Source of the DNA: Hydrogenophilales bacterium
GTDB lineage: Bacteria > Pseudomonadota > Gammaproteobacteria > Burkholderiales > Thiobacillaceae
Assembly: GCA_037439465.1 (NCBI GenBank)
Contig: JBBIVX010000014.1
Location: 7,293 to 71,292 of the forward strand
Direction of reading: 5' to 3'
DNA: 64,000 nucleotides
How positions within the stretch are numbered: position 1 is the stretch's first letter; every line of letters begins with the position of its first letter. Made by a program: the position numbers and the translations under genes. The notes under the pieces are model-generated. The model made no database searches and was not told the origin of the DNA. It worked only from the letters and a program-made list of their open reading frames with translations. This document shows positions 1 through 50,671 of the stretch, in pieces.

Positions 1-2208
1 ACGTATGCCTTGCAGATCGAGGTGCTCGACCGCAATGGCCGGGTACTGTTGGCGCAGCCGTGGCATATGCGCACCAACCTCTCCCTGTTCAAGGACGCCC
101 AGGGCCGCGAATTTACCCCCGCCTTTTATCTCAACAACGACCGCGTCCCCTTGCTCAGCGCCATCATCCGTCTCAATTTCGCCGGCCTGCCGCCGCCCGA
201 GCGGCTGCGCCTGCGCCTGTTGCGCAAGGACGCGGACATACGCGATGTGGTGGCGCGCGTTTACCTCCCCGAAAAAATCCAGGCGCACAAGATCGGCTAT
301 CTGTGGCAGCGGCTGAGCGAGAAAACGCGGACGGCGCTGGCGGCCGGCAACGTCTATCCGAGCGAGCTGCTGACCGAGGAAGAAAAGCGCGCCCTCATGT
401 TCAACTCCTGGCAGCCCATAGGCCCCAAGGATCGTCACGGCGAGTTGCGCCGCTGGGATTACTACGTGCTGCGCGACAACGAGGGCGAAATGATCGACAG
501 CGCCATCCCCAGCGCCGGGCTGCGTTTTTCCGCCGGGCACTCGGGCATGGTGCCGCTGCCCGAGGAAGGCGGCCGCCTGCGTCTGCATTTCGAGCCCGGC
601 CTCGCCCCCGTCCAGGGCGACATCCGCCTCATGTGGTATGGCAACACGGCCTTCCAGCGCCGGCAGTTCCGGCTGCATTTCGACGGCCGCCCCCTGGACC
701 ATCGTCTCGACCTCGGCGGCGGCCTGCTGGAAATCCTCGCCGATGCCGACCTCAGCGCGCGCCTCTATCTCATCGACAACAAGGGAAAGGAGACCGAGAT
801 CACCCCGGTGCCGCAATACCTGCGCACCTACAGGACCGACCTGGCGCGCCCCATCGAGTACGGCATCCTGCACGTCGCCGCCACCCCCACGCCGATCAAG
901 GTCGATCTGCGCACCCTCACCCCGCCCGAGGACAGCTGGGCGGAGCGCTCCCCGCTACTCGACTATGCCTTGCTCGATCAGGCCGGGAAGGTGCTCAAAC
1001 AAGGCCGCATCGCCATCAGCAAAGCCGACAGCCGCTACGACAGCGTAGTCAACGACTACACCGGCGCGCGTTTGAGCGACCCCTCTACCTACTACTTCCT
1101 GCTGCCGGCCAACGTCGCCAGGCTGCGGCTCCAGGGCGCGTCGGAAGACGCGCCGGTTCTGGTCGCGGTGTCCAGCCGGCCACTCGACCTGCCGCACCGC
1201 TACCGCGCCCCCGAGGACCAGTTCGACTTCGACGCCCTGGGCAAGCGCGTCAGCGCCTGGTTCCCGCTCAAGCCGGAGAACCACGTGCAGTGGCTGGCCG
1301 ACAACGCCAGCGTGCTGCTGACGGTGCAACCGCGCCCGCCCGAGGACAGACCCGAGCTGTTGAGCGGCCGCTATGCCTGGGAGGATTTCCATCCGCTCGG
1401 CGCCTGGAAGGGCCGCCTGTTGCTCACGCCGCAGGAGCCCGGCATGCCATTTCGCAGCGAGGCGCTGCCCGCCAGCTATCAGGAGATCATCCCCAGGCGC
1501 GACACCGCCATCTCCCTGCCATCCTACGAAGGCCTGCGCAGCCTGGCGCCCCGCCTGCTATGGGTGCGGCCGCAGGAGACGCCGGCGTCATTCAGCCTGT
1601 TCGTGGACGGCCGCCCGCACCAACAGGGCCGTCTCGCCGGCCGCCATGGCGAAATACAGCTGCTGCCGCTGAGCGTCGGTCCGCACCGGCTGCGGCTGGT
1701 CAGCGAGGCGGGCGGCAAGTTCTTTCTCAACCACCTCGAACCGCGCTCGCCAGTCTATGTGCAGCGGCTCGCCAACCAACTGGAAAACGCGCTCGACTTC
1801 GTCGTCGCGCGCACCACTTCATGTGCCGAGACCCTCTCGGTGAGTCTCTTCCAGCCCAGCGAGCGGCGTGCCCGCAGCCGCCTCCGGGTCGAGGTGCGCG
1901 GCCCGGCGCCGGCCAGTCTCGCCCCCCTGCCCGCCTGGGTGTTCAGGCTCAGGGAATTCGATGTGCGTCCCGACAGCCGCGACGCCGTCACCGTATTTTC
2001 GGCGCAGGAGGCCCGCACCGATGCCGGACAATCTTTCTACCTGCCTTTCCCTGCGGGCGCGCCCAGGGGGCTGTACCGCATTACCATACGACTGCAAAGC
2101 GGGCCAGGCGGCCACGTCCTGCTGTCGCGCCTGACTCCAGGCGTCAAGCCGACAGAGCGGCTATTGCATGAAAACGATGTCGTCACTTATGAAAACGCAC
2201 AAGACTGA
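1..2208 (+). CDS. Large hypothetical protein, 5' end outside the window; first visible gene of a four-gene operon
   Basis: Frame 1 is open from nt 1 (ORF track 10..2208, 732 aa). No catalytic motif recognised. Sequence looks beta-rich. It carries a module LLPLSVGPHRLRLV that recurs in the downstream giant protein. Its 3' end overlaps the next ORF. Confidence 0.6.
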   Translation, partial: TYALQIEVLDRNGRVLLAQPWHMRTNLSLFKDAQGREFTPAFYLNNDRVPLLSAIIRLNFAGLPPPERLRLRLLRKDADIRDVVARVYLPEKIQAHKIGYLWQRLSEKTRTALAAGNVYPSELLTEEEKRALMFNSWQPIGPKDRHGELRRWDYYVLRDNEGEMIDSAIPSAGLRFSAGHSGMVPLPEEGGRLRLHFEPGLAPVQGDIRLMWYGNTAFQRRQFRLHFDGRPLDHRLDLGGGLLEILADADLSARLYLIDNKGKETEITPVPQYLRTYRTDLARPIEYGILHVAATPTPIKVDLRTLTPPEDSWAERSPLLDYALLDQAGKVLKQGRIAISKADSRYDSVVNDYTGARLSDPSTYYFLLPANVARLRLQGASEDAPVLVAVSSRPLDLPHRYRAPEDQFDFDALGKRVSAWFPLKPENHVQWLADNASVLLTVQPRPPEDRPELLSGRYAWEDFHPLGAWKGRLLLTPQEPGMPFRSEALPASYQEIIPRRDTAISLPSYEGLRSLAPRLLWVRPQETPASFSLFVDGRPHQQGRLAGRHGEIQLLPLSVGPHRLRLVSEAGGKFFLNHLEPRSPVYVQRLANQLENALDFVVARTTSCAETLSVSLFQPSERRARSRLRVEVRGPAPASLAPLPAWVFRLREFDVRPDSRDAVTVFSAQEARTDAGQSFYLPFPAGAPRGLYRITIRLQSGPGGHVLLSRLTPGVKPTERLLHENDVVTYENAQD

Positions 2209-3061
2209 ACTCATGGCGGCGCTGGTGATGGCCGCCCTGGCGCCGACGGTCCAGGCCGACTGGGTGCAGCAACTGGCGGCGGCCAGCAGCGAACGGCATT
2301 TCGTACAGCCCGCCACGGCCGACGTGAAACGGGCGCAGGCGCTCTTTCTGCGGCTCATGCAGGGCGAGCGGGGGGAGGCGCTCGCCAGGGCCTGGTCCGA
2401 ACTCGGTTTCGATCTCGGCAGCGACCCCACGGAAGGACTGACCCTGCTGCGTGAACAGCCCGGCGCACGTCGTGGCCGCGGCTTCTTCGTCTTCCGCCAG
2501 GGCTCAGCCGACGCCTTGCAGATACCGCACGCCTTCAAGGACGCCATGACCGGCCAGATTGGCGTCGCCCTCTTCCGGCAGGGCCGATTCGGCGCCGCCG
2601 CCTGGAATACGGTGCCGCGTGATTTCGTCGCGGACGGCCGGCGCGTCGATGCCGATATGGCGCATCTTGACGACAGCTACTTCACCGCCTTCGCCCGTGC
2701 CAGCGCGCAACGTCACCCGCAAGGCCGAATCTATCAGCTGCACGGGTTCGAGCAGGAAAACCGCCGCAGCGGCGCAGCCAGAAAAGCCGCCGTCATCCTC
2801 AGCGACGGCAGCCGCACGCCCGCGGCCACGCTGCGCCGGCTCGCCGACTGTATCGCCGCCGGCACACGGGCCAGCGTCCTCACCTATCCCGAGGATGTCC
2901 GGGAATTGGGGGCCACCGCCAACACAGTGGCCGCCGCGCTGCGGCGGGAGGGTTTCGCCGGCTTCGTGCACATCGAGATGAGCCGTCAGTTCCGCACCGA
3001 TCTAGCGCAAAGCCCGGCGCGGCTACGGACGCTGCTGAGCTGCCTGGAGGGCGGGGTTTGA
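2168..3061 (+). CDS. Secreted hypothetical protein; weak motif resemblance to poly-gamma-glutamate hydrolase (PghP) / N-formylglutamate amidohydrolase-fold zinc hydrolases
   Basis: 297-aa ORF. Alternative in-frame ATGs at 2177, 2189 and 2213. Signal-peptide-like MKTHKTELMAALVMAALAPTVQA. Motifs IPHAFKDAMTG, YQLHGF and FVHIEMSRQFR resemble, from memory, the PHAGGIE / FHGY / GVQLEIS motifs of PghP-type enzymes. Stop TGA 3059-3061 shares one nt with ATG 3061 of the next gene. Confidence 0.55.
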   Translation: MKTMSSLMKTHKTELMAALVMAALAPTVQADWVQQLAAASSERHFVQPATADVKRAQALFLRLMQGERGEALARAWSELGFDLGSDPTEGLTLLREQPGARRGRGFFVFRQGSADALQIPHAFKDAMTGQIGVALFRQGRFGAAAWNTVPRDFVADGRRVDADMAHLDDSYFTAFARASAQRHPQGRIYQLHGFEQENRRSGAARKAAVILSDGSRTPAATLRRLADCIAAGTRASVLTYPEDVRELGATANTVAAALRREGFAGFVHIEMSRQFRTDLAQSPARLRTLLSCLEGGV

Positions 3062-6000
3062 TGCTGTTGCGCCGGCCGCGTCTGCTCGCCCTGCTGTTGC
3101 TGGGCTGGTCCTGTCTCGCCCAGGGCGAGTTGGATGAAGTCCAGTCGCGTCTGCTGGCGCCCTACGCCCTGCCGCTGCGCTGGGACAACATCGAGGCGGC
3201 GCCGGCCTGGCTCCGTGGCATCCAGCCGGCCTACCGCAAGGACAAGGGCTACCACACCATCCGGCTGGCCGAGGGCGAGTGGACCGAGGTTCACGTCGCC
3301 GCCGGCGAGCAATTGCGCCTCACTGCCGTCGCAGGCACGCTCGCCCAGTCCGACCTGCGCCTCATGGTGGCCAATGGCAGCGGCCTCTATGTCGAGACGA
3401 GCCCGCAGCCGAGCGACGATGGCCGCCACTGGATCATCGGGGCCGGGGCCACATCCGCGTCGGTATATCGCCTGGAGCGCATCGGCCAAGGCCGTGGGCC
3501 GCTGGAAATCGCCCTGTTCGCCTCCCGGCACATCCCCTTGGGCGAGCTGGCGCCGTATCGGCGGGTGCTGCCCCTGCCCGGCCAGGCCGTCTCGCTGCGC
3601 GCTGCCACAGCCGCCGCCGCGCAAACGTATTGGCGGCTGGAAAGCGATCAGCCGGTTGCCCTCAAGGTGACCGGCCCGCGCCGCCTGGCGCTGGACAGCC
3701 GGATGCTTTATCCCGCCAGCGAAAGCGGCCTGCTGCAGTCGTGGCGGGTGCAATGCTGGCTGGACGACAGGCCGCTGCACACCGCCGAGATGGAGAGCAA
3801 CGTCGAATCCATGCAGGAGGTAGTCGTCGATCGGGCGAGCACGGTGGTCAGCCGCGCCGAGCGTTTTTATCTGGAGATACCGTCTGGCGAGCACCGCTTG
3901 CGGCTGCGCGCTTCCGCGCCCTTGCTGGCGCGGCTGCTGGCGCAGGAGTCCACCGATTATCTCTTTCCGGCACTCAACCAGCCGCGCCTCACGGCCGAGG
4001 CGGCACGCGCCGACCTCGACCCGGATGAGGCCGGCCGCAGCAGTTGGCAACGCGGCACGCGCGAGATCGAGGCGGCCGCCATGGCCACCGCCAACGTCAG
4101 CGCCGTCGAGCACGCCGCCCTGCGTCTGGCCATGGATACCCGCTGGCGCGAGGGCGGCAGCGTCGGCGCCGCGCTGTTGGCACAGGCGGCCCTGGCACGG
4201 CCGGAGGATCAGACGCTAGCGGCCCGTGCCCGCCATTTCAGCGGCGCCCATACCTTCTTCCGCGATCTGCTACCCGCGGACAAGACAGAGCCCGCCGCCA
4301 TGGCCTATCGCTGGTTCCGCCTGCCGCACCTGCTGGACCCCGGCCAGGAGGCGCCTAATCTGGTGGTGGCGGCGCAGCACCGGGAGGCGCTGCTCGACCG
4401 ACTGGGCAGCGGTTATTTCATCGCCCTGCCGCCCCGCCGTCCGGCCAGGCCAGCCGCCATCCTGCCGCCTCCAACCGCGCCCATCGCCGCCCTGGAAAGC
4501 GTGCGCGAGGTCATCCAGTTCGAGCCTTATTCCGCCCGCCTCACCCAGGCGGCGCGAGCCCGTCTGCAGGCGCTCGCCCAACGCCAGCAGCCACTGGCAG
4601 GCGGGCGGCTGGAGATTCGCGGTTACACCGCCAGCGACAAGGTCTCGGCCTACAACCAACGGCTTTCGCAACGGCGCGCCACGGTTGTCGCCGAGGCGCT
4701 CGCCGCATTCGGTCTCAAGGCCACGGTGGTCAAGGCGGCGGGACGCGGCAACGCCGACCCGGTGGCCGACAATGCCAGCCGCAGCGGCCGGCAGCAAAAC
4801 CGGCGCGTCGAGCTTACCTGGCAGCCGCCCGCGGTCAGCCCGCCGCCGCCTGTCACGGCTCCGGCGCCACGAGCCGACAGCGCCCGCTACCTGCTACCGC
4901 CGGCCTATGCCCCACGCACACTGCGCCTGCTTGCCTACGGCGCGGACGAGGCCGAATTCTTGCTGCAAGTCGATCAGCAAGCGCCCCGCCGCTTGCGTTT
5001 CGCGCCGCGCGACCGGCTGCCGGATGTGGCCTTCGCCCCCACCCCCGGCGAGGGCGGCCTGCTCTTGCAACGGCTCGGCGGTGATGGGCATGGCGATGGC
5101 AGCCTGAGTCCCGTTTTTGGCCGCCACCGGGTGGCGGCGGCCATGGTCGCCGCCGCCAGCGTCGAGCTGATCTTGCCCGCCGCCAGCCACGAGATTCGCC
5201 TGTGGCGGGCCGCTGCCTCGGCTGGCGGAGTGCGCGTGGCCGTGCAATATCAGGCCGCCGCCGCCTTCCAATTGAGCGAGCGCGAGTTTCTCAGCCTCTT
5301 CGATCTCGACCAGGATAGCGGTCTGCCGCTGCGGCTGGCGCTGCGCGCCGGCTGGCAGGAGACGGACGGCGCCGGCCCGGAACGGCTCGCCAGCCAGTGG
5401 CGGCCGCTGGCGCGGTGGCTGCTGGCGGAATTGCGTCAGGCGGCTGGCGGTGTGCGCGCGCCGACCGCCGCCGAGCGCACATCGCCGGCGGCCGGCGACG
5501 CCGCGCAGCGGGCGCGCGCGGCAGCGGCGCAGGGTCAGTGGCTGCTGGCGCTGGAAGAGTGGGGCCGCGTCTGGTTCGCGCGCAGTCGCCAAGCCGAGCG
5601 CGACGCGGCCGAGTGGGGGCGTATCGACGCCCTCGGCCAGTTGGGCGAGGACTTCATGTATGAACAACTGCTCAAACAGATACTGCTGTTCGACCCTGAC
5701 CCGGAGAAGCGCGGCCACGCCCTCGACAGGCTGGAAAAACACTTTGCCCAGGCCAGCGACGAGGAGGCGCGGCTGCGTCTCTATGCCATTGCCGTGCAGC
5801 GGCAGCCGGACGCCCTGGTCTACTGGCGCAAGCTCACGCAGGCGCTGCTGCAGCAAGGCGAATTCCGTCTCGCCCTGCTGGCCGGCCTGGCCCTGCCGCC
5901 GCGGCAGCGCCCCATCGAGGCGCTGCTCGAAGCGAGCTGGCGCCTACGCTGGTGGCAGACCTTCGACCGCCTGCGTGTCGATCTCGAAGACGCCGAACGC

Positions 6001-8754
6001 CGCGCCTTCTGGCAAGGGATGCGGGCCATCGCCGCCGATGAGTTCGAGACGGCGCGGCGGCATTGGCGTGCCGCCGGCAACGATGGACGCGTCTACGCCG
6101 ATCATCTCGCCCGCGCACTGGCCTTGCGCCAGGCGATGGAACGCGCCCCCCGCCTCGGCGCCGAAACCCGCGAACGCTGGGCCGAATGGCAAAGTCAAGC
6201 GCCCGGCCCGCACCGCTGGCGTGACGCGCCCGAATACGTCAGCGATTTCGCCGGCGCCCTGTCCGGTTACGCCATCGACCGCGACCTGCATTTCTCTCTC
6301 TACAAGGCCAGCGCGGAACGGCCGCTGCGCCTGACCGTGACCGGCCCCGCCCGGCTGCGCCTGGAGGCGCGGCCCATACACGCCTCGGCCACTGGCGGGA
6401 ACCTGGAGGGCTGGCTCACGGCCCGGTCGGCGCAGGGGCTATGGGTGGCCCCCATCATCGCCAACCAGGCCAACACCGCACTGCAACTGGCCGACGGCAC
6501 CTGGGTCGGGCGCAAGGTCGCGCTGGATATCCCGGTGGCGGCCGGCCGGCAGTCCATCGAGGTTGCCGCCGGCGCGCTGGCGATCGCCGTGCGCGTCTAT
6601 GTCGAGCAGCCGGCCCTGCCCCTGGGCGCGCTGCCAGCGCCGCCCTGGCTGGAAGCCGACGATCGCCAGGCCGAACGGCTGAGCTTCGAACCCGTCGAGT
6701 CGACCTGGCTGCGCCCTTGCGAAGGCTGCCTGATCGTCCCGGACGGCGATCCGCAGCAACCCTCGCGGCGATACCGCCGGGTGATTTCGCCATCGCCGCC
6801 GCCGGCGCCTCTAGCCGAGGCCCCGGTCGCCGAGCATGAGGCCCGGCTGCTGGCGGAGGGCGATTTCGACCGGCTGCTCGCCGGGCTGCCGCTGACCCCA
6901 GCCCCGCCCGGCGAGGTGCTCAAACGCCTGATCTGGCTGCTGTGGATCGCCGAGACCTCGCCGCCTCATGGCGAGCGGGCACTCGCCGCCGGTCAGGCCC
7001 TGGCCGCCGCCAACCCCGGCGTTGCCGGCCTGGCGCGCCTAAACGATCGGCTGACGCGCAACAGCGGCTGGAGCGCCCAGGAGATCGCGCAGGAAAGCGC
7101 CGGCACGCGCCTGCTGCCGGTCGCCGGCTGGCAGCCGGAAAGCCCGTCTGCGCGCCTGCAGAAGGCGCTGTTGCCGCCGCTGGCGGACGACGAACAGGTC
7201 ATCGGCGGTCATACCCGCCTGCTGCTTTCACTGCGCCACGGCAAAAAGGGCTGGATCGATTTCGCGCTGAGGCCGGAGGATCTCGGCGGTCTGCCGCCGC
7301 AAGCCATGCAGGTCGCCGTGCAGCGTGACGGTGAGGCGCCGCGCTTCATCACCCTGGCGCCTGATGATGACTGGCAGACGCATCGCCTGGACATGCCGGC
7401 AGGTCATCATGCCTTGCGTTTCTGGCTGCCGAGCCCGGTGGCCAACCAGCTGCTGCGCCTGCGGCTGCGTGAGCGCCGCGGCCAGGCCATCGTCCAACAA
7501 TTCGAGCGGCCGTACCAGATCGCCACCGCCGCACAGCCGCTGCGCGCCCTGCTGCCGGGGCCGGCCTGGCTGCGCGTGGACGAGTGGCGCGCCGGCCAGA
7601 CACACAGCCGCTACCAGCTTTTGTCCGGGCCCTGGCAGACCGTCACCTTGATGCCCGCCGCCGGTCAGCGCGAAGCGCTGTTCCGCCTGCACCTGCGTAG
7701 CACGGCGCCAGCCCGGCCGGTGGTGCCGCCGCGTCCCCTCGTCAGCGCAACGCTGGCCGTGCCGCCCCCACCGCTCCGTCTCGACGCCCAGGTCGTGCCC
7801 GCCAGCATGCATCTGGCCGATGCCTTTGCCTTGGGCGGCCAGGAAGACGGCACCTGGACGGTGGCGGCCGGCGCGCATTCCCGCTATGACGCCGACAGCG
7901 ATGCCGCGGAAAAATACATCGAGGGCACGCTCACACATCGCTACTACGACCCGGCACGGCGGACCTATTTCACCACGCAGGGCCTGCTGCGCCTGCGTGC
8001 GGCCGGCGACCCGACACTGGGACTGACGGTGCGCGCCGACCGGCACCTCGCCCACTGGCCGCTCGACGCCTTCGCCGAGGGCAGCGTCCATGCCCAGACC
8101 CTGCCCTTCGTCGGCAACGACTGGTCCGCCCATCTCAAGGCCGGCCTCAGCCAGCACCGCGACATCGACCCCATGACCTGGCATACGCCCTGGCTGACGG
8201 CCTATGCGCGCCAAACGGGGGCCGGCGACGCGCTCAGCCCCGAAAGGGTGGACCAGGACATCCACACCCGCTACCAGGCGCAGCACCGCTTCGGTTACGA
8301 GATCGGTGACCGCCTGAGCTACCGCCCGTGGCTGGACAGCCTGTTGCAGACCGGCCTCGGTGTCACCAGCAACCAGAATCTGGTGACGCCCGACAAGGCG
8401 CGCCTGACGGTGCGGTGGCAACAGTTGCTGGGCCGCTGGCAGGCCGATGCGCACGCCGCCTGGACACATTATTTCGACGATGCCGACCGCGTCAGCGCCC
8501 TCGACCGGCGCGAGCTCGGCCTGCGCCTCGCCTGGGAAGGCTGGCGGCCCAACCAGGATCGCCTGGAGCTTCTCTTCGATCTCACCCATCACTTCGACGC
8601 CGGCTTCACCTCGGGCTGGCTCGGCCTGAGCTGGCATCTGGAACACGGCCGCGGCTACCGCGACTGGCCACCCGGCACGGTCGATTTCCGCGATCTCAGA
8701 CAACGCAATCTGCCCGATCGCCCCAACAACCGCATCGAGGCCGGCGAGCCATGA
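3058..8754 (+). CDS. Giant secreted envelope protein (about 1898 aa): beta-sandwich-like modules, internal OmpA-like peptidoglycan-binding domain, helical repeat region, C-terminal putative outer-membrane beta-barrel
   Basis: One uninterrupted ORF; TTG at 3058 or ATG at 3061. Signal peptide MLLRRPRLLALLLLGWSCLAQGE. OmpA_C-like block LEIRGYTASDKVSAYNQRLSQRRATVVAEAL...NRRVELTW. Helical Ala/Leu/Arg/Trp-rich block of roughly aa 820-1060. The last roughly 330 aa are rich in alternating aromatic/polar beta-strand patterns (GLRLAWEGW, LELLFDLTHHF, GWLGLSWHLEHG). Confidence 0.75.
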   Translation: MMLLRRPRLLALLLLGWSCLAQGELDEVQSRLLAPYALPLRWDNIEAAPAWLRGIQPAYRKDKGYHTIRLAEGEWTEVHVAAGEQLRLTAVAGTLAQSDLRLMVANGSGLYVETSPQPSDDGRHWIIGAGATSASVYRLERIGQGRGPLEIALFASRHIPLGELAPYRRVLPLPGQAVSLRAATAAAAQTYWRLESDQPVALKVTGPRRLALDSRMLYPASESGLLQSWRVQCWLDDRPLHTAEMESNVESMQEVVVDRASTVVSRAERFYLEIPSGEHRLRLRASAPLLARLLAQESTDYLFPALNQPRLTAEAARADLDPDEAGRSSWQRGTREIEAAAMATANVSAVEHAALRLAMDTRWREGGSVGAALLAQAALARPEDQTLAARARHFSGAHTFFRDLLPADKTEPAAMAYRWFRLPHLLDPGQEAPNLVVAAQHREALLDRLGSGYFIALPPRRPARPAAILPPPTAPIAALESVREVIQFEPYSARLTQAARARLQALAQRQQPLAGGRLEIRGYTASDKVSAYNQRLSQRRATVVAEALAAFGLKATVVKAAGRGNADPVADNASRSGRQQNRRVELTWQPPAVSPPPPVTAPAPRADSARYLLPPAYAPRTLRLLAYGADEAEFLLQVDQQAPRRLRFAPRDRLPDVAFAPTPGEGGLLLQRLGGDGHGDGSLSPVFGRHRVAAAMVAAASVELILPAASHEIRLWRAAASAGGVRVAVQYQAAAAFQLSEREFLSLFDLDQDSGLPLRLALRAGWQETDGAGPERLASQWRPLARWLLAELRQAAGGVRAPTAAERTSPAAGDAAQRARAAAAQGQWLLALEEWGRVWFARSRQAERDAAEWGRIDALGQLGEDFMYEQLLKQILLFDPDPEKRGHALDRLEKHFAQASDEEARLRLYAIAVQRQPDALVYWRKLTQALLQQGEFRLALLAGLALPPRQRPIEALLEASWRLRWWQTFDRLRVDLEDAERRAFWQGMRAIAADEFETARRHWRAAGNDGRVYADHLARALALRQAMERAPRLGAETRERWAEWQSQAPGPHRWRDAPEYVSDFAGALSGYAIDRDLHFSLYKASAERPLRLTVTGPARLRLEARPIHASATGGNLEGWLTARSAQGLWVAPIIANQANTALQLADGTWVGRKVALDIPVAAGRQSIEVAAGALAIAVRVYVEQPALPLGALPAPPWLEADDRQAERLSFEPVESTWLRPCEGCLIVPDGDPQQPSRRYRRVISPSPPPAPLAEAPVAEHEARLLAEGDFDRLLAGLPLTPAPPGEVLKRLIWLLWIAETSPPHGERALAAGQALAAANPGVAGLARLNDRLTRNSGWSAQEIAQESAGTRLLPVAGWQPESPSARLQKALLPPLADDEQVIGGHTRLLLSLRHGKKGWIDFALRPEDLGGLPPQAMQVAVQRDGEAPRFITLAPDDDWQTHRLDMPAGHHALRFWLPSPVANQLLRLRLRERRGQAIVQQFERPYQIATAAQPLRALLPGPAWLRVDEWRAGQTHSRYQLLSGPWQTVTLMPAAGQREALFRLHLRSTAPARPVVPPRPLVSATLAVPPPPLRLDAQVVPASMHLADAFALGGQEDGTWTVAAGAHSRYDADSDAAEKYIEGTLTHRYYDPARRTYFTTQGLLRLRAAGDPTLGLTVRADRHLAHWPLDAFAEGSVHAQTLPFVGNDWSAHLKAGLSQHRDIDPMTWHTPWLTAYARQTGAGDALSPERVDQDIHTRYQAQHRFGYEIGDRLSYRPWLDSLLQTGLGVTSNQNLVTPDKARLTVRWQQLLGRWQADAHAAWTHYFDDADRVSALDRRELGLRLAWEGWRPNQDRLELLFDLTHHFDAGFTSGWLGLSWHLEHGRGYRDWPPGTVDFRDLRQRNLPDRPNNRIEAGEP
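4501..4821 (+). other. OmpA-like (OmpA_C / MotB-type) peptidoglycan-binding domain embedded in the giant protein
   Basis: VREVIQFEPYSARLTQAARARLQALA...LEIRGYTASDKVSAYNQRLSQRRATVVAEALAAFGL...GRGNADPVADNASRSGRQQNRRVELTW. This matches the classic N-x2-L-S-x2-RA and NRRVE signatures. Confidence 0.75.
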
Positions 8755-16800: not shown

Positions 16801-17452
16801 GGACGTGTCCCTGCGTGGGCTGGGCCGGCGCCGAGCGCGGCCGCCGTGTCTTCAGCCAGTTGAAAAGCAGCAGCCAGGCCGCCAGCACGAAAAAACCACC
16901 GGGCGGCAGCACCATCACCACCCAGGGCTGGAAGTCCGGACCGAACAAGGGAAAACCGAACAGCTTGCCGGCGCCGAAGATCTCGCGCACCGCGCCCAGG
17001 GCGAAGAGGCCGATGCTGAAGCCGAGGCCCATGCCGGCGGCGTTGAGGGTGGCGCGCAGGGGCGGATTCTTGGCGGCGTGGGCCTCGGCCCGGCCGAGGA
17101 TGATGCAGTTGACGACGATGAGCTGGATGAAGGCGCCGAGGGCCTCGTACACCGCCAGGCTGACGGCCTGGATGAGGTAATCCACCACCGTGACGAAGGT
17201 GGCGATGATGAGGATATAGGTGGCGATACGCACTTCGGTGGGCACGAGGCGGCGGATCGATGAAATCAGCAGGCTGGAGCCGACCAGCACGAAGGTGGTG
17301 GCAAGCCCCATGGAGAGCGCGTTCACCGCCGACACGGTTACCGCCAGGGTCGGGCACATGCCCAGCACCATGACGAAGACCGGGTTCTGCTTCCAGACGC
17401 CTTCGAGAAATTCCTCCAGGTGACTCGGTGGCGCTTGTCCGGGCAGGGCCAT
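16790..17452 (-). CDS. rnfE: Rnf electron transport complex subunit E
   Basis: 220 aa. WKQNPVFVMVLGMCPTLAVT and QLIVVNCIILGRAEA are the RnfE/RsxE pattern. It overlaps rnfA by 11 nt. Confidence 0.9.
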   Translation of the reverse strand: MALPGQAPPSHLEEFLEGVWKQNPVFVMVLGMCPTLAVTVSAVNALSMGLATTFVLVGSSLLISSIRRLVPTEVRIATYILIIATFVTVVDYLIQAVSLAVYEALGAFIQLIVVNCIILGRAEAHAAKNPPLRATLNAAGMGLGFSIGLFALGAVREIFGAGKLFGFPLFGPDFQPWVVMVLPPGGFFVLAAWLLLFNWLKTRRPRSAPAQPTQGHVHGA

Positions 17453-18141
17453 TATCTCTTCTCCAGTTTATCCAGATGGGGCAGCAGGCGCGGCAGCAAC
17501 CTGCCGGCGCTGTCGTTGATGCCTTTGCCGACCGCCTTGGAAGTGATGGTGGCGCCGGAGATGGCGTCGATCTCCCAGGGGTTTTGCTTGCTGCCGTGTT
17601 TGACCGTCTTCACCGGGTGGGCCAGGGTCGACCGGTCGGGGGCGAGACGCACGTCGAGGGCCTCAAAGTTTTTCAGGAAAGCGCGATCGGTGTTGATCTT
17701 GTCGCCGATGCCGGGTGTCTCGCGCATGGCGATGACGCCGATGCCGGCGATCGCCTCGCGGGCCGGGTCATACGCGTAGAGGATGCGCACGACGTCGGCA
17801 TAGCCCTTGCCGGCGCCCTCGGCGGCGATACCCTTGATATGGCCGGCGGCATCGTAGGCGACATGGAACTTGATGCCGTCCACCGGCGCCGCTCCGCCGG
17901 CGGGCACCACGCCGCCGGGGCCGGCCCAGAATTCATTGACACTGACGGCGCCGGGAATCACCTTGAACACCGCCCGCTCCAGGGCGATCTTTTTGTTGGC
18001 GGTGACCGCATCCAGCGTTCCCTGGTAGGCGGACACGATGAGCACGCCGCATACCGTGGCGACCGCGCCGAGGGTGCGCACCATGGAGGCGCCGGAGGTG
18101 ACTGGCGTGGCAGAAGCGGGGGACGGTGTCGACGCATTCAT
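17452..18141 (-). CDS. rnfG: Rnf electron transport complex subunit G (FMN-binding)
   Basis: 229 aa. N-terminal anchor. The motif ISGATITSKAV is the covalent FMN attachment type (SGAT). Position between rnfD and rnfE. Confidence 0.88.
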   Translation of the reverse strand: MNASTPSPASATPVTSGASMVRTLGAVATVCGVLIVSAYQGTLDAVTANKKIALERAVFKVIPGAVSVNEFWAGPGGVVPAGGAAPVDGIKFHVAYDAAGHIKGIAAEGAGKGYADVVRILYAYDPAREAIAGIGVIAMRETPGIGDKINTDRAFLKNFEALDVRLAPDRSTLAHPVKTVKHGSKQNPWEIDAISGATITSKAVGKGINDSAGRLLPRLLPHLDKLEKR

Positions 18142-19190
18142 GGCCGCACCTTGCCGCGCGGCGCGCCGAATACCCTGGGCTGGGTGTACTGGTCGATCAG
18201 CGGCGCCAGGGCATTGCCCAGCAGAATGGCGTACATCACCCCCTCGGTGAGCCCGCCGAAGTAGCGGATCATCACCGTCACCACGCCGATGACGGCGCCA
18301 TAGAGCCAGACACCTTTCGGCGTGACTGGCGAGGTCGCCATGTCGGTGGCCATGAACACCGCGCCCAGCATGAGGCCGCCGGAGAGCAGGACGAACAGCG
18401 GGCCGGGATAGCGCGCCGGATCATAGAGTTGAAAGGCCCAGGCGGTGAGCGCCGCGGCGCCGAGTACGGCCAGTGGGATGCGCCAGTCGAGAAAGCGGCG
18501 CGCGGCCAGGTAGCCGCCGCAGAGCAGTATCAGGATGGCGGAGGTCTCGCCGGCGCTGGCGCTGGCGGCTCCGGTAAGAAAGTCCTGGGCCGGCGTGAAA
18601 TAGGTCTCGAACTTCCAGCGCGCCAGCGGCGTCGCCCCGGTGAAGCCATCGAGCGCATGTCTGGCCCAGGGACCGATGTCGGGCGGCGTCATCAGCGGCA
18701 GCGTGAAGGTGCTAGGGATGAATTCGCTGAAGCGCTGGCCGGCATAGGCCGGCGCCCAGGTGGAGATGGATACCGGGAAGGCGGCCTGAACGAAGGCGCG
18801 GCCGACCAGGGCGGGATTGAGAACGTTGCCGCCGAGGCCGCCGAATAGGGCCTTGCCCAGGCCGATGGCGACGAAGCCGGCGACCGCCCCCATCCACAGC
18901 GGAAACGCGGGTGGCAGGGTGAGCGCCAGCAACAGGCCGGTGATGGTGGCGCTCCAGTCGGCGAGAGTGCTGGCCTGGCCGCCGAGACGATTGAACAGCC
19001 GTTCGGTGACGAGACAGCTCAGCGTCACCGTGGCGAGCAGCGCCAGGGCGGAGAGCCCATACTGCCAGATCGAAAACAGCGCGATGGGCAACAGCGCCAG
19101 CACCACGTTGAACATGATGCGCTCGACGCCAATGCCGCGCTTGACATGAGGCGAGGCGCGCAGCTCGATGCGGACGGCGCCGTGTTTCAT
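18138..19190 (-). CDS. rnfD: Rnf electron transport complex subunit D
   Basis: 350 aa from ATG 19190, which overlaps the rnfC stop (ATGA). Polytopic. SPHVKRG near the N-terminus and FMATDMATSPVT (FMN site) are typical of RnfD/NqrB. Confidence 0.9.
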   Translation of the reverse strand: MKHGAVRIELRASPHVKRGIGVERIMFNVVLALLPIALFSIWQYGLSALALLATVTLSCLVTERLFNRLGGQASTLADWSATITGLLLALTLPPAFPLWMGAVAGFVAIGLGKALFGGLGGNVLNPALVGRAFVQAAFPVSISTWAPAYAGQRFSEFIPSTFTLPLMTPPDIGPWARHALDGFTGATPLARWKFETYFTPAQDFLTGAASASAGETSAILILLCGGYLAARRFLDWRIPLAVLGAAALTAWAFQLYDPARYPGPLFVLLSGGLMLGAVFMATDMATSPVTPKGVWLYGAVIGVVTVMIRYFGGLTEGVMYAILLGNALAPLIDQYTQPRVFGAPRGKVRP

Positions 19191-20533
19191 GCCGCCGCCT
19201 GCTCGCGCAACAGTCCCTTGGCCACCCGGAACTGCTGCACCAGGGGGATGTTGGACGGACAGACATACGTGCAGCAGCCGCATTCGAAGCAGTCACCGAG
19301 GTGGTAATGAGCGCCCATCGCCTCATACTCGCGCGCGCCGGCCAGCATGCCCAGCATCGAGGGGTTCAGGCCCATCGGGCAGACGTTGACGCATTCGCCG
19401 CATTTGATGCACGGATAGATCTTGCGCCGGCTCTCCGCCTCGATGTCATTGCGGTCGAACACCAGTATGCCCGACACCCCCTTGGTGACGGGGACGTCCA
19501 GGGAGGCGACGGCCTGCCCCATCATGGGGCCGCCCAGTATGATCTCGCGTTCGCTCACATCGCCGGCGCCGGCCCAGTCGAGCACATGGCGCATGGGGGT
19601 GCCGAGCGGCACCCAGTAATCGCCGGGCCGGGCGACGCCGGGGCCGGTGACGGTAACCACCCGTTCGATCAGCCCGTGGCCGCCCGGCAACAGGCGGCCC
19701 AGCATGGCCAGTGTACCGACGTTGTTGACCACCACACCCACTTGCGCGGGCAGCCCGCCGGCCGGCACGTCAAGATCGAGCAGCGATTTGATCAACATTT
19801 TCTCGGCGCCCTGCGGATATTTGGTCTCGACTGCCGCAACGCTGATCGCGCCGTCGGCCGGCAATCTGGCCTGGATGGCGGCGATGGCGTCCGGCTTGTT
19901 GTCCTCGACGCCGATGACGGCCCGCCCCACCCTCGTTGCCCGCATGGCGTAACGGGTGCCGGCGATGAGGTCATCGGTCAGCTCCAGCATCATGCGATGG
20001 TCGCAGGTAAGGAAGGGCTCGCATTCGCAGCCGTTTACCACCAGTGTGCCAATGTTGCGGTCCTTGGGCACGGTGAGTTTGACATGACTGGGGAAGGCGG
20101 CGCCGCCCAGGCCCACCATGCCGGTGTCCTGGATGGCCTGGAGGGTTTGCTCGGGCGAGAGCCTCTCCATGTCTCTCGCCGCGCCCACCCGCAAAGCCTG
20201 GGTCGAGGCTTCATAGGCGCGGATGACGATGCACTCCGTCCATGGCCCGCGCGCCGAAGGGCGCAACTCCATGGCTTCAACCACCCCGTCCGCCGGGGCA
20301 TGCAGCGGCACGGACATGAAGCCGTCCGCACGTGCGATCAATTGTCCGCGTACCACCTCCTGGCCCACCGAGACGGTGGGCACTGCCGGCTTGCCGATGT
20401 GCTGCGCGAGGGGGAGGATCATGCGCGGCGCAAACGGCATCCGACGAATCGGCATGCCGGCAGTGCTCTTGTGGCTCGCCGGGTGAACCCCGCGGGCAAA
20501 CGTCTTGCGCGCAAATAATGAAAAAAGATTCAT
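19187..20533 (-). CDS. rnfC: Rnf electron transport complex subunit C
   Basis: 448 aa. GVHPASHK near the N-terminus, GLGGAAFPSHVK, and two 4Fe-4S motifs CIKCGECVNVCP and CFECGCCTYVCP. Confidence 0.92.
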   Translation of the reverse strand: MNLFSLFARKTFARGVHPASHKSTAGMPIRRMPFAPRMILPLAQHIGKPAVPTVSVGQEVVRGQLIARADGFMSVPLHAPADGVVEAMELRPSARGPWTECIVIRAYEASTQALRVGAARDMERLSPEQTLQAIQDTGMVGLGGAAFPSHVKLTVPKDRNIGTLVVNGCECEPFLTCDHRMMLELTDDLIAGTRYAMRATRVGRAVIGVEDNKPDAIAAIQARLPADGAISVAAVETKYPQGAEKMLIKSLLDLDVPAGGLPAQVGVVVNNVGTLAMLGRLLPGGHGLIERVVTVTGPGVARPGDYWVPLGTPMRHVLDWAGAGDVSEREIILGGPMMGQAVASLDVPVTKGVSGILVFDRNDIEAESRRKIYPCIKCGECVNVCPMGLNPSMLGMLAGAREYEAMGAHYHLGDCFECGCCTYVCPSNIPLVQQFRVAKGLLREQAAA

Positions 20534-20583
20534 CTCTTTTCTTGGCGACGAGTCACCGCGTGAGAAGTGACGCGCCGCACCGT

Positions 20584-20628
20584 GCGCGCACCCTGCGCGC
20601 TGGTCATTGTCACTTTGTCACCTGTCAC
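20584..20628 (-). promoter_or_regulatory. Intercistronic element between PFOR and rnfC: 7-bp GC hairpin plus four tandem (G/T)GTCA(C/T) hexamers
   Basis: GCGCGCA-CCC-TGCGCGC at 20584-20600. Then ggtcat, tgtcac, tgtcac, tgtcac at 20602, 20608, 20616 and 20623 (6-8 nt spacing). All lie in the 111-nt gap between the PFOR stop and the rnfC start. Confidence 0.4.
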
Positions 20629-20644
20629 TTGGTCTCGGCCTTTA

Positions 20645-25591
<4,947 letters not shown>

Positions 25592-25649
25592 TTCCCATCC
25601 TTTTTGATAAGCACCAGATTCTGCAAATCCTGTCGCCGCGTCCAGTGTT

Positions 25650-26531
25650 TCAGCCTTCACTCAGCAGCGGCAGCGGCGTAATACGTATGATCTTCTTGGC
25701 GGCCCTGCCCCTGGCGGCCTGGTCACCCTCCAGCCAAACGATGGCTCCGGTCGGACAGCGTTCGATGGACCTGGCGGTGGCCAGCGCATTGCGGCCATAG
25801 TCGATGGTCGCCAGTTCGTTCTCGACCTTGATCAAACCCGGCGCCGAATCGACCGCGCACTTGCCGCAGGCGGTACAGGCGACTTCGCACAGCCGCTCGG
25901 CGGTATCGCCGTCGGCGTGGTTCTTACAGGCAACCCACAGCTTGTGGGAGAGGGGGTGCAGGGAAAACAGGCCCTTCGGGCAGACCACGACGCAATCGCC
26001 GCAGGCCGTGCACTTGTCCGTGTCCACCTCCGGCAGACCGTACTGGTTCATGCGAATAGCGTCGAAATCGCAGACCGCCTCACAATCACCCAGACCCAGG
26101 CAGCCCCACACGCAGGCCTTGCCGCCGCCGCCAACGGTGGCGGCGGCGCGACAGGTTGCCAGGCCGTCGTAATGGGCACGCAGGCGTGCCACGTGCTTGC
26201 CGCCGGCGCAGGCGAGACGTGCCACCCGCTTTTCCACATCGCCGGCCGCGACGCCCAGGAAGTCGGCGATATACCCCGTCATTTGCGGTGGGCTGACGGT
26301 GCACTTGGCCGGCATGATCTTGCCTGCCACCAGTTCCTCGGCAAAATTGCGGCAGCCTGCGGTGCCGCAGGCGCCGCAATTGGACTTGGGCAGCAACTCT
26401 TCGACCTGGGCAATGCGCGGATCCTCGTAAACATAGAGCCGCCTGTTGGCCACCGCCAACAGCCAAGCCAGCAGCCCCCCCAGGGTCGCCATGAAAAGGC
26501 CCGCCAACGTCACGCCAACTATCGTATCCAT
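25650..26531 (-). CDS. rnfB: Rnf electron transport complex subunit B (polyferredoxin)
   Basis: 293 aa. N-terminal helix. CGACGTAGCRNFAE. Additional clusters CTACGDCVVVCP and CTACGKCAV. Confidence 0.88.
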   Translation of the reverse strand: MDTIVGVTLAGLFMATLGGLLAWLLAVANRRLYVYEDPRIAQVEELLPKSNCGACGTAGCRNFAEELVAGKIMPAKCTVSPPQMTGYIADFLGVAAGDVEKRVARLACAGGKHVARLRAHYDGLATCRAAATVGGGGKACVWGCLGLGDCEAVCDFDAIRMNQYGLPEVDTDKCTACGDCVVVCPKGLFSLHPLSHKLWVACKNHADGDTAERLCEVACTACGKCAVDSAPGLIKVENELATIDYGRNALATARSIERCPTGAIVWLEGDQAARGRAAKKIIRITPLPLLSEG

Positions 26532-28389: not shown

Positions 28390-28402
28390 GGCGGCGCCCC
28401 GG

Positions 28403-29845: not shown

Positions 29846-29854
29846 GGCCGAGGC

Positions 29855-31348: not shown

Positions 31349-31378
31349 CGCGTATTCCCGAGCGTTTCATTCTTGAGG

Positions 31379-33382: not shown

Positions 33383-33383
33383 G

Positions 33384-34303: not shown

Positions 34304-34313
34304 GTGTCGTCCG

Positions 34314-34805: not shown

Positions 34806-34815
34806 CCTCGCCTCC

Positions 34816-50645: not shown

Positions 50646-50671
50646 CAGGTAATGGTCAATCACCCCATCCC

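What the first reader, a model, noticed from the sequence alone, without database searches (positions are those of the whole stretch)
8751..12902. Unusual architecture and topology puzzle of the HEAT-PgsB fusion
**Seen:** the protein has four parts.
- About 690 aa of helical, HEAT-like repeat sequence with no signal peptide.
- A single hydrophobic helix, LPELILFTLAALMAFLIRHLYL.
- The PgsB-like core, which carries an insertion of about 150 aa between the LIGSNLHG and GIQNIKGTG blocks.
- A tail of about 160 aa that looks like a coiled coil.

In Bacillus PgsB the equivalent helix is the N-terminal membrane anchor.

**Inference:** a bona fide transmembrane pass here would put either the large HEAT domain or the ATP-dependent ligase in the periplasm. 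The helix is therefore probably monotopic or re-entrant, or the protein works as a scaffolded cytoplasmic-face complex. I do not recall a HEAT-repeat scaffold fused to a polymer ligase being described.
Basis: partly seen in the sequence, partly recalled or inferred. Interest (0 to 1): 0.8.

Follow-up and report, generated by a model that had tools for sequence, protein, structure and literature searches.

The report
HEAT-domain PgsB ligase, diderm polyglutamate-like operon
The gene is real and widely conserved: a polyglutamate-synthase-like ligase fused to a large cytoplasmic helical-repeat module, and it is the last gene of an undescribed six-gene operon that probably makes and exports a polyglutamate-like polymer across the two membranes of Gram-negative bacteria.

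Summary
The 1383-aa ORF (8751-12902, +) exists as described and is not an artefact. There are 64 full-length homologues, and 111 of the top 150 cluster representatives are fused.

The anatomy needs one correction. Only about aa 1-448 is helical/HEAT. Residues 453-663 form a separate, strongly conserved alpha/beta domain with no Pfam, PDB or fold match.

After that come a low-confidence linker, a helix homologous to the CapB anchor, a Mur-ligase/PgsB-like core, a helical insertion about 125 aa longer than in CapB, and a conserved helical tail.

In about 15% of representatives the N-part is a separate protein without a signal peptide. It ends just after an RFF motif, and the ligase gene starts next to it. 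AlphaFold2 models residues 184-1383 as one body (pTM 0.82). Both large parts are therefore almost certainly cytoplasmic. The exact membrane disposition of the helix stays open.

The gene closes a conserved operon:
- sensor kinase
- tandem-PgsC protein
- anchored periplasmic protein
- secreted hydrolase-like protein
- about 1900-aa TPR/OmpA envelope protein
- this ligase

The operon has no CapA, CapD or CapE. I found no literature on it. It is a new variant of the PgsBC synthase.

The parts
1..2208 (+). g2 (3' 735 codons; the gene runs off the left edge of the window). About 815-aa protein with one N-terminal membrane anchor in full-length relatives. No known domain.
   Evidence: Frame-1 translation aligns with the 813-aa gene of L001 and L002. 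It is conserved between g1 and g3 in the loci. The anchor helix was seen in L012. No Pfam or NCBIfam hit.
2168..3061 (+). g3: 297-aa secreted protein with a hydrophobic N-terminus. H121, D125 and H192 are invariant. It belongs to an uncharacterised family and may be a metal hydrolase.
   Evidence: Alignment A5 of 32 members. 2 of 32 members weakly hit PF05908 Gamma_PGA_hydro (E 0.018). It is homologous to two tandem domains in the C-terminal half of g1 (hhalign 98.6% and 98.2%). All 72 database relatives are unnamed.
3058..8754 (+). g4: 1898-aa envelope protein with a signal peptide, an OmpA-type peptidoglycan-binding domain (aa 488-582), a TPR-like middle and a beta-rich C-terminal part of about 500 aa (possibly an outer-membrane barrel).
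   Evidence: OmpA E 1.5e-15. Among 20 orthologues, 3 carry OmpA, 3 carry SPOR, and several have TPR hits. Beta-type periodicity dominates residues 1401-1887. The C-terminal alignment shows alternating-strand patterns. No PDB sequence match.
8751..10094 (+). g5 aa 1-448: helical region with HEAT repeats and no signal peptide.
   Evidence: PF13646 at aa 268-337. HEAT_2 in 23 of 23 N-parts. PDB profile hits to alphaRep, AP-2 beta and YibA at aa 255-410. AlphaFold2 gives all-helical repeats for aa 184-448. Residues 1-183 were not modelled.
10107..10739 (+). g5 aa 453-663: orphan alpha/beta domain, the best conserved part of the N half. Invariant residues: R472, W506, R507, E511, K519, R520, H525, R529, E544, P551, G552, E553, P568.
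   Evidence: Invariant columns. AlphaFold2 pLDDT 88, pTM 0.86. Foldseek against PDB: best E 2.2, TM at most 0.24. Foldseek against BFVD: best E 3e-3, TM at most 0.39. No Pfam or PDB sequence hit.
10740..10829 (+). g5 aa 664-693: linker made of the RFF(P) motif, a variable stretch of 13-45 aa, and the invariant Y-F-x-S-x-Y-x-N-S/T motif. Natural gene fission occurs here in relatives.
   Evidence: Residues 667-693 are the only segment with pLDDT below 50. Alignment of 65 homologues. Split loci L035, L059, L060, L062 and L064.
10830..10922 (+). g5 aa 694-724: one long helix. It has a 14-residue uncharged core (L697-I710), a conserved face (L697, F700, A704, F708) and a basic juxtamembrane half. 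It is the homologue of the CapB/PgsB N-terminal anchor.
   Evidence: AlphaFold2 helix. Kyte-Doolittle 19-residue window of 2.04 here and 1.1-2.3 across the family. Charge bias. Conservation and low hydrophobic moment. Alignment to CapB.
10932..11849 (+). g5 aa 728-1033: Mur-ligase/PgsB-like ATP-dependent amide ligase core, with the P-loop GGWGTRGKSG (aa 731-740) and the PDHED motif.
   Evidence: TIGR04012 E 3e-59, 200.6 bits (cut-off 222.7). Foldseek top hits are FPGS, MurC/E, cyanophycin synthetase and MurT. 29% identity to CapB by tblastn. Invariant columns.
11853..12275 (+). g5 aa 1035-1175: helical insertion inside the C-terminal ligase domain. It is variable in sequence.
   Evidence: About 160 aa between LIGSNLHG and NRIQGIQNIKGTG, against 34 aa in CapB. 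Helical in the AlphaFold2 model.
12279..12392 (+). g5 aa 1177-1214: strands that close the C-terminal ligase domain (GIQNIKGTG block).
   Evidence: AlphaFold2 strands. Equivalent to NRIVYGVGNIHG of CapB.
12393..12902 (+). g5 aa 1215-1383 plus stop: helical tail domain with the conserved motif EAFLDAGDAxxRRK...RISxxRAxLELQxLNKRQKGGW.
   Evidence: AlphaFold2 gives helices of at most 33 residues, pLDDT mostly 80-90. E1322, D1326, R1333, R1334, A1354 and G1368 are invariant. The tail has no counterpart in CapB.

Best explanation
g5 is the catalytic, ATP-dependent amide-ligase subunit of a PgsB/PgsC-type polymer synthase that has been adapted to a two-membrane cell envelope.

**Layout of the protein**
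- The ligase half and the N-terminal half (HEAT repeats plus an orphan alpha/beta domain) both sit in the cytoplasm and are docked to each other.
- The conserved hydrophobic helix between them is the homologue of the CapB anchor. Its conserved L-F-A-F face ties the enzyme to the membrane-embedded tandem-PgsC protein g1.
- The N-part lies upstream of the helix and is cytoplasmic, so in the fused form the helix cannot be a conventional N-out single-pass anchor. Most likely the helix, together with the aromatic YFFSVYxNS segment and the linker, forms a re-entrant or hairpin-like membrane insertion.

**Role of the N-part**
- It acts as an accessory (scaffolding, regulatory or chain-handling) subunit.
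- It can equally well be encoded as a separate protein.

**The operon**
- g0, a sensor kinase, regulates the system.
- g1 plus g5 polymerise, probably gamma-linked glutamate.
- g2, g3 and g4 handle and export the polymer through the periplasm and outer membrane.

**Shown**
- The domain anatomy.
- The homology to CapB and CapC.
- Conservation of the fusion and of the operon.
- Natural split forms.
- Absence of CapA, CapD and CapE.

**Inferred**
- The compartment of each part.
- The helix topology.
- The nature of the polymer.
- The export roles.
For: **The fusion is real and conserved**
- 64 full-length homologues of 1329-1458 aa at 38-90% identity.
- 111 of the top 150 representatives are fused.

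**Core identity**
- TIGR04012 E 3e-59.
- Mur-ligase fold.
- CapB tblastn E 8e-37.
- The helix aligns with the CapB anchor with the same F-8-F spacing.

**Cytoplasmic N-part**
- No signal peptide.
- 20-21 stand-alone N-parts end 1-25 aa after RFF.
- Adjacent ligase genes with their own start codons are verified in L035, L059, L060, L062 and L064.
- Split forms fall in about 13 clades of a neighbour-joining tree.
- AlphaFold2 pTM 0.82 and pLDDT 85 over 1200 residues. My estimate for two unplaced halves is about 0.6.
- Flank charges are 0.54 K+R on the N side and 4.22 on the C side.

**Operon**
- The order g0-g1-g2-g3-g4-g5 holds in most of the 54 genome loci, from Beta-, Gamma-, Alpha- and Zetaproteobacteria, Desulfobulbaceae, Campylobacterota, Planctomycetota and Myxococcota.
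- g1 carries two CapC domains (PF14102 E 1e-42, two stretches).
- g4 has OmpA or SPOR plus TPR.
- CapB and CapC together are the known synthase (PMC10090944).
Against: - The score is below the TIGR04012 trusted cut-off (200.6 against 222.7), so it is not an equivalog. The substrate is unproven.
- No tool here predicts membrane topology, and model coordinates and PAE were not available. The docking of the halves is inferred from pTM alone.
- The hydrophobic run is short (14 aa), and in about a quarter of homologues the 19-residue hydropathy stays below 1.6. True membrane insertion is not certain.
- In split forms the ligase has only 7-22 residues before the YFFSVY motif. That would also suit an ordinary N-out anchor, so the family may not share one topology.
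- The link of g3 to gamma-PGA hydrolases rests on 2 of 32 weak hits and has no PHROGs support.
- The g4 barrel is inferred from periodicity only.
- g1 is not inside this window. Its presence is inferred from L004, the closest relative (82-92% identity).
Confidence: 0.62

Rival explanations
1. The helix is a genuine single-pass transmembrane segment. The HEAT and alpha/beta N-part lies in the periplasm, where it would scaffold g2, g3 and g4, and the ligase stays in the cytoplasm.
For: The positive-inside rule alone predicts N-out and C-in. The other operon proteins are periplasmic or envelope proteins that could need a scaffold.
Against: - No signal peptide in fused or stand-alone N-parts. Translocating a 690-aa N-terminal domain without one is not known.
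- AlphaFold2 places the N half and the ligase half in one body (pTM 0.82).
- Stand-alone N-parts have neither a signal peptide nor a transmembrane segment.
Confidence: 0.05
2. The hydrophobic helix is not inserted in lipid at all. It is a buried protein-protein contact element, or an in-plane peripheral helix, and the enzyme is a peripheral cytoplasmic complex bound to g1.
For: The uncharged run is only 14 residues. Hydropathy is below the usual transmembrane threshold in about 17 of 65 homologues. One helix face is strongly conserved, as expected for a protein interface.
Against: Low hydrophobic moment (0.15) with fairly high mean hydrophobicity is more like a transmembrane helix than an amphipathic surface helix. 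It is homologous to the much more hydrophobic CapB anchor. The flanks show a typical aromatic belt and a basic cluster.
Confidence: 0.15
3. The ligase does not make free poly-gamma-glutamate. It builds or decorates another product, for example a different polyamide, a peptide-modified glycan or an envelope-anchored chain. The large insertion, the tail and the N-part would provide a new acceptor site.
For: - The score is below the PgsB equivalog cut-off.
- About 125 extra residues sit in the C-terminal (substrate) domain, with a conserved tail that CapB lacks.
- CapA, CapD and CapE are absent.
- The orphan domain has an invariant basic cluster.
- Mur-ligase relatives use very different acceptors.
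Against: Strict co-occurrence with CapC/PgsC domains, which are known only from gamma-PGA synthases. The best family match by far is PgsB. There is a weak gamma-PGA-hydrolase hint for g3.
Confidence: 0.25
4. The fusion in this window is an assembly or frameshift artefact that joins two genes.
For: The two halves are separate genes in some relatives.
Against: - The reading frame is uninterrupted.
- All eight closest homologues, from independent samples, are 1379-1404 aa and colinear.
- 111 of 150 representatives are fused.
- The linker carries conserved motifs on both sides.
Confidence: 0.01

Closest known systems
PgsB/CapB of the Bacillus PgsBCA(E)/CapBCADE poly-gamma-glutamate synthase (TIGR04012; Mur-ligase superfamily)
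   Same: - A hydrophobic helix lies directly before the P-loop, with the same F-8-F face.
- The GxxGKS P-loop and the DHxD motif are present.
- Identity is 27-29% over about 340 aa.
- It is encoded together with CapC/PgsC domains.
   Different: - 690 extra N-terminal residues (HEAT plus orphan domain).
- About 125 aa more in the C-domain and a conserved tail of about 160 aa.
- The score is below the equivalog cut-off.
- PgsC is duplicated in tandem and fused to two g3-like domains.
- There is no PgsA/CapA, CapD or CapE. Instead there are g0, g2, g3 and g4.
- The hosts are diderm bacteria.
Synthase-dependent exopolysaccharide secretion systems of Gram-negative bacteria (cellulose BcsABC, PNAG PgaABCD, alginate Alg8/44/K/E, Pel). 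This comparison is from my own knowledge of these systems.
   Same: The operon logic is the same:
- an inner-membrane synthase
- a periplasmic, membrane-anchored partner
- a secreted hydrolase-like protein
- a very large TPR-containing envelope protein with a beta-rich C-terminus
- an extra cytoplasmic accessory or regulatory module on the synthase
   Different: The polymerase is an ATP-dependent amide ligase, not a glycosyltransferase. No sequence homology to any Bcs, Pga, Alg or Pel component was found, and no PilZ or GGDEF-type receptor was detected. The resemblance is in architecture only and is partly inferred.
Other Mur-ligase superfamily enzymes (FPGS/FolC, MurC-F, cyanophycin synthetase CphA1, MurT)
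   Same: These are the best structural matches of the ligase half (Foldseek E 4e-7 to 1e-4). FPGS and CphA1 also add amino acids repeatedly through ATP-dependent acyl-phosphate chemistry (my own knowledge).
   Different: Identity is only 11-16%. None has a membrane helix, a HEAT module, the orphan alpha/beta domain, or a PgsC partner.

Membership tests
PgsB/CapB poly-gamma-glutamate synthase (TIGR04012 equivalog) | Whole-protein score above the curated NCBIfam cut-off | tested here: not met
   200.6 bits against a cut-off of 222.7. The match covers profile positions 3-325 of 380.
PgsB/CapB poly-gamma-glutamate synthase (TIGR04012 equivalog) | Mur-ligase fold with the P-loop GxxGKS/T and the DHxD metal/ATP motif | tested here: met
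   GGWGTRGKSG and PDHED are invariant in 65 sequences. Foldseek matches FPGS, MurC/E and CphA1.
PgsB/CapB poly-gamma-glutamate synthase (TIGR04012 equivalog) | Hydrophobic anchor helix immediately upstream of the P-loop | tested here: met
   Residues 694-724 align with the CapB helix. The conserved face and the F-8-F spacing are shared. Here the helix is internal, not N-terminal.
PgsB/CapB poly-gamma-glutamate synthase (TIGR04012 equivalog) | PgsC/CapC partner encoded in the same operon | tested here: met
   g1 carries two CapC domains in L004 (closest relative), L012 and 29 other loci. In this window the gene lies beyond the left edge.
PgsB/CapB poly-gamma-glutamate synthase (TIGR04012 equivalog) | PgsA/CapA (and CapD, CapE) partners in the locus | tested here: not met
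   tblastn with pXO2 CapA, CapD and CapE found no operon member. There were only two incidental CapA-like hits.
PgsB/CapB poly-gamma-glutamate synthase (TIGR04012 equivalog) | Product is gamma-linked polyglutamate | not testable with these tools
   This needs biochemistry.
HEAT-repeat proteins (PF13646/PF02985) | Significant repeat matches and an all-helical solenoid | tested here: met
   PF13646 at 32-35 bits, above its cut-off of 27.7. 23 of 23 N-parts match. PDB alphaRep and AP-2 beta hits. The AlphaFold2 helical repeats cover aa 184-448 only.
Synthase-dependent trans-envelope polymer secretion systems (Bcs/Pga/Alg/Pel type) | Outer-membrane beta-barrel porin joined to periplasmic TPR repeats | tested here: inconclusive
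   TPR hits in several g4 orthologues. One weak NfrA_C hit (E 0.075). Beta periodicity in the last 500 aa. No PDB sequence match. No structure model was made.
Synthase-dependent trans-envelope polymer secretion systems (Bcs/Pga/Alg/Pel type) | Periplasmic polymer-modifying hydrolase or lyase | tested here: inconclusive
   g3 is secreted and has invariant His/Asp/His. Only 2 of 32 members weakly hit PF05908. There are no PHROGs or PDB hits.
Synthase-dependent trans-envelope polymer secretion systems (Bcs/Pga/Alg/Pel type) | Glycosyltransferase synthase and a c-di-GMP receptor | tested here: not met
   No such Pfam or NCBIfam domains in g0-g5. The synthase is an amide ligase.

The most novel reading that the evidence does not exclude
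The window carries part of a previously undescribed, phylogenetically widespread six-gene trans-envelope machine. In diderm bacteria it would synthesise a poly-gamma-glutamate-like polyamide at the inner membrane and export it through a dedicated periplasmic and outer-membrane pathway. Its ligase would be controlled or assisted by a cytoplasmic HEAT plus new-fold domain subunit that is interchangeably fused or free. This would be a polyamide counterpart of the synthase-dependent exopolysaccharide systems.
Probability: 0.5. Interest if true: 0.85.

Novelty: new variant of a known kind. Interest (0 to 1): 0.7.

Why it matters
- Poly-gamma-glutamate synthesis is understood almost only from Bacillus PgsBCA. 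No structure of PgsB is in the PDB copy searched. How such a polymer would cross a Gram-negative envelope is unknown.
- This family offers a natural dissection of the synthase: fused and split forms, a tandem PgsC, and a domain with no fold match carrying an invariant basic cluster.
- It also offers a candidate complete export route.
- The operon occurs in cultured strains (Belnapia moabensis DSM 16746, Legionella impletisoli, Nannocystis spp.) and in environmentally important groups (Competibacter, Nitrosomonas, Thiodiazotropha symbionts, Zetaproteobacteria). The idea can therefore be tested directly. It could bear on biofilm and EPS chemistry in wastewater and in symbiosis, and on polyglutamate production in Gram-negative hosts.

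Tried and rejected
I modelled residues 184-1383 and 446-668 instead. Residues 1-183 remain unmodelled.
- The word-indexed homologue search with the N-part alone gave only 4 partial hits. The exhaustive representative search was needed.
- For the orphan domain, Foldseek against PDB and BFVD, Pfam and a PDB profile gave nothing convincing.
- For g3, the PDB profile and PHROGs gave nothing. PF05908 matched only 2 of 32 members. All database relatives are unnamed. I do not call it a PGA hydrolase.
- The g4 C-terminus has no PDB sequence hit.
- The topology of g1 from averaged hydropathy was too ambiguous to place its C-terminal domains.
- Splits rejected as evidence: L042 looks like a frameshift, because the alignments overlap inside the alpha/beta domain. 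P0075 is cut by a contig end.
- The assembly-artefact reading was rejected.
- Five literature searches found no description.

Full report
**1. The observation**

The ORF 8751-12902 (+) encodes 1383 aa. Its ATG overlaps the TGA of the upstream 1898-aa gene (ATGA), with GAGG 11-14 nt upstream, which is typical translational coupling. The longer GTG-initiated ORF from 8328 overlaps the upstream gene, and homologues do not support it. They start at the same MT(G/D/E)xD/E...ALAPHW sequence.

- Pfam finds HEAT_2 and HEAT at aa 268-337.
- NCBIfam finds PgsB (TIGR04012) at aa 702-1038, E 3e-59. The score of 200.6 bits is below the 222.7 cut-off, and the match covers only profile positions 3-325 of 380.
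- Real CapB from B. anthracis pXO2 was fetched as L058 and aligned. Its anchor helix aligns with ELILFTLAALMAFLIRHLYL.
- The stretch between LIGSNLHG and NRIQGIQNIKGTG is about 160 aa, against 34 aa in CapB.
- About 163 aa follow the last shared block, against about 21 in CapB.

The four-part description is therefore essentially right.

**2. Corrections from structure prediction**

AlphaFold2 on residues 184-1383 with 65 homologues gave mean pLDDT 85.3 and pTM 0.82.

| Residues | Predicted feature |
|---|---|
| 184-448 | Helical repeats |
| 453-663 | Mixed alpha/beta domain |
| 667-693 | The only segment with pLDDT below 50 |
| 694-724 | One long helix |
| 728-1033 | Ligase core |
| 1035-1175 | Helical insertion |
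| 1177-1209 | Strands closing the C-domain |
| 1215-1382 | Helical tail, longest helices 26 and 33 residues |

- Foldseek of this model against the PDB returns only Mur-ligase superfamily enzymes at the top: FPGS 1o5z (E 4e-7), MurC/E, cyanophycin synthetase and MurT.
- No PgsB structure exists in the PDB copies searched.
- The alpha/beta domain is the most conserved part of the N half. R472, W506, R507, E511, K519, R520, H525, R529, E544, P551, G552, E553 and P568 are invariant.
- Modelled alone, this domain is confident (pLDDT 88, pTM 0.86). It has no meaningful neighbour in the PDB (best E 2.2, TM at most 0.24) or in BFVD (best E 3e-3, TM at most 0.39, rmsd above 10 A).
- It has no Pfam or PDB sequence match either.

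The "690 aa of HEAT" is therefore HEAT plus a domain with no match in the structure libraries searched. The tail is a conserved helical domain, not a demonstrated coiled coil.

**3. Is the fusion real?**

Yes.

- 64 full-length homologues (1329-1458 aa, 38-90% identity) exist in independent metagenomes and MAGs. Sources name them only "HEAT repeat domain-containing protein" or "PgsB/CapB".
- An exhaustive HMMER search with the N-part (aa 1-668) against 1.84 billion cluster representatives found 563 proteins at E 1e-3 or better, and 332 at E 1e-30 or better.
- Of the best 150, 111 contain the ligase P-loop.

**4. Natural split forms**

Twenty to twenty-one of those 150 representatives are proteins of 645-723 aa that end 1-25 residues after the conserved D-P-x-V-x-R-F-F motif. 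Random truncation cannot produce this clustering.

I checked the DNA for the following loci:

| Locus | What the DNA shows |
|---|---|
| L035 (Sphingomonadaceae) | The N-part stop overlaps the ATG of the ligase gene (ATGA) |
| L059 | A 22-nt spacer precedes MNPFATQGMALIDGRLWERLQDYFVSVYENSLPELILF... |
| L060 | The two genes overlap by 14 nt |
| L062 | The ligase gene starts beside the N-part gene |
| L064/L065 | The ligase gene starts beside the N-part gene |

- One apparent split (P0075) is a contig-end truncation. L042 looks like a frameshift.
- In L048 and L066 the N-part gene is not followed by the ligase gene. In L066 a response-regulator gene follows it.
- On a neighbour-joining tree of N-parts, the split state needs at least 13 changes. 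This is a rough tree with a midpoint root.
- The junction is therefore evolutionarily labile, and it lies exactly in the low-confidence linker.

**5. Topology**

- The stand-alone N-parts have no signal peptide and no hydrophobic segment, so they are cytoplasmic proteins.
- A pTM of 0.82 over 1200 residues cannot be reached if a 480-residue half and a 690-residue half were placed independently. With d0 of about 11 A, my estimate for that case is about 0.6. The model therefore docks the N half onto the ligase half. This is an inference, because PAE was not available.
- The ligase needs ATP, and its side of the helix is strongly basic (4.22 K+R in 15 residues, against 0.54 on the N side).
- The linker has no second canonical transmembrane segment. 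It can be as short as 13 variable residues plus the invariant Y685-F-x-S-x-Y-x-N692 motif.
- The uncharged core of the helix is only 14 residues. Its hydrophobic moment is low (0.15). L697, F700, A704 and F708 form one conserved face, with the same Phe-8-Phe spacing as CapB.

My reading is that both large parts are cytoplasmic (about 0.9). The helix is the CapB-type element that packs against PgsC. In the fused protein it must be re-entrant or hairpin-like, or the linker must thread back along the PgsC subunit. Which of these holds is not resolved. A periplasmic HEAT domain is very unlikely.

**6. Context**

The gene is the last of a conserved operon.

| Gene | Size | Features |
|---|---|---|
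| g0 | about 890 aa | Membrane sensor histidine kinase |
| g1 | about 1080 aa | Two tandem CapC/PgsC domains (PF14102 E 1e-42, TIGR04011), then two domains homologous to g3 (hhalign 98-99.7%) |
| g2 | about 815 aa | One N-terminal anchor |
| g3 | about 300 aa | Secreted; invariant His/Asp/His; unnamed family; weak PF05908 hint in 2 of 32 members |
| g4 | 1700-1950 aa | Signal peptide; OmpA or SPOR; TPR; beta-rich C-terminus |
| g5 | 1383 aa here | This gene |

- The window starts inside g2, so g0 and g1 are off its left edge.
- The closest genome locus, a Hydrogenophilales MAG (L004, 82-92% identity), has g0 and g1 in place.
- CapA, CapD and CapE have no counterpart in the operon.
- The operon occurs in Beta-, Gamma-, Alpha- and Zetaproteobacteria, Desulfobulbaceae, Campylobacterota, Planctomycetota, Myxococcota, Acidobacteriota and Rickettsiales MAGs.
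- Cultured hosts include Belnapia moabensis, Legionella impletisoli, Acanthopleuribacter pedis and Nannocystis spp..
- Downstream of g5 lies an unrelated, convergent nadA gene.

**7. Mechanism proposed**

- CapB and CapC are the known synthase pair (PMC10090944). Here g5 and the tandem-PgsC protein g1 would form the inner-membrane polymerase.
- The cytoplasmic N-part would act as an accessory subunit. Its invariant basic cluster could hold the anionic chain or a regulatory ligand. This is speculation.
- g2, g3 and g4 would provide a periplasmic and outer-membrane route. This resembles synthase-dependent exopolysaccharide systems by analogy only. g0 would regulate.
- The polymer is most likely gamma-polyglutamate-like, but this is unproven. 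The sub-threshold PgsB score, the enlarged C-domain and the missing CapA leave room for a different product.

**8. Novelty**

Five literature searches found no description of a HEAT-PgsB protein or of this operon. The core chemistry belongs to a known family, so I rate this a new variant of a known kind. It has an undescribed accessory module and system architecture.

Noticed in passing
L004:2920-6168, L012:4158-7418 (g1; off the left edge of the window): The PgsC partner is a protein of about 1080 aa. It has two tandem CapC domains, followed by two tandem domains homologous to the small secreted protein g3. The invariant His/Asp/His of g3 is replaced in these copies (for example VEVPAPLEE and LQVRAY), so they look like pseudo-enzyme copies.
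   Followed up: partly
L004:195-2876, L012:1435-4116 and at least 20 other loci: A membrane histidine kinase of about 890 aa (one transmembrane segment, a periplasmic part of about 230 aa, 3-4 transmembrane segments, HisKA/HATPase) is conserved directly upstream of g1. No response regulator lies in the core operon, but L066:10074-10547 has a Response_reg gene right after the stand-alone N-part gene.
   Followed up: partly
window 3058-8754 (g4) and orthologues in alignment A8: The peptidoglycan-binding module of g4 is interchangeable. It is OmpA-type in 3 of 20 orthologues (including the window copy, aa 488-582), SPOR in 3 of 20, and undetected in the rest.
   Followed up: partly
L043, L047, L053, L056 (Rickettsiales MAGs); L045-L052 (Nannocystis): In distant lineages g3 is fused to the C-terminus of g2-like or other proteins (ORFs of 700-1230 aa). 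g5 also carries further N-terminal extensions there (up to about 2200 aa stop-to-stop). In Campylobacterota (L040) g5 precedes g4.
   Followed up: no
L005, L010, L011, L013: Some loci have g2-g3-g4 without an adjacent g5 or g1. In Candidatus Thiomargarita nelsonii (L011) a g5 N-part fragment lies on the opposite strand at the start of the locus. The system may be dispersed or rearranged in these genomes.
   Followed up: no
window 14149-15153 (-): This 334-aa secreted protein ends in an IPTL-CTERM sorting signal (TIGR04174, E 1.5e-7, above its cut-off). It also weakly matches 'midcut-by-XrtH'. That implies an exosortase-type sorting system in this organism.
   Followed up: partly
window 16001-20000, 28001-36000, 50001-52000: These are stretches with unusually strong AT skew (+0.12 to +0.28) compared with the rest of the window. 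The cause was not examined.
   Followed up: no
window 20645-25660 (-) and 20567-23776 (+): Very long overlapping ORFs on opposite strands (1671 aa and 1069 aa) appear in this high-GC window. Which one is the real gene was not examined.
   Followed up: no
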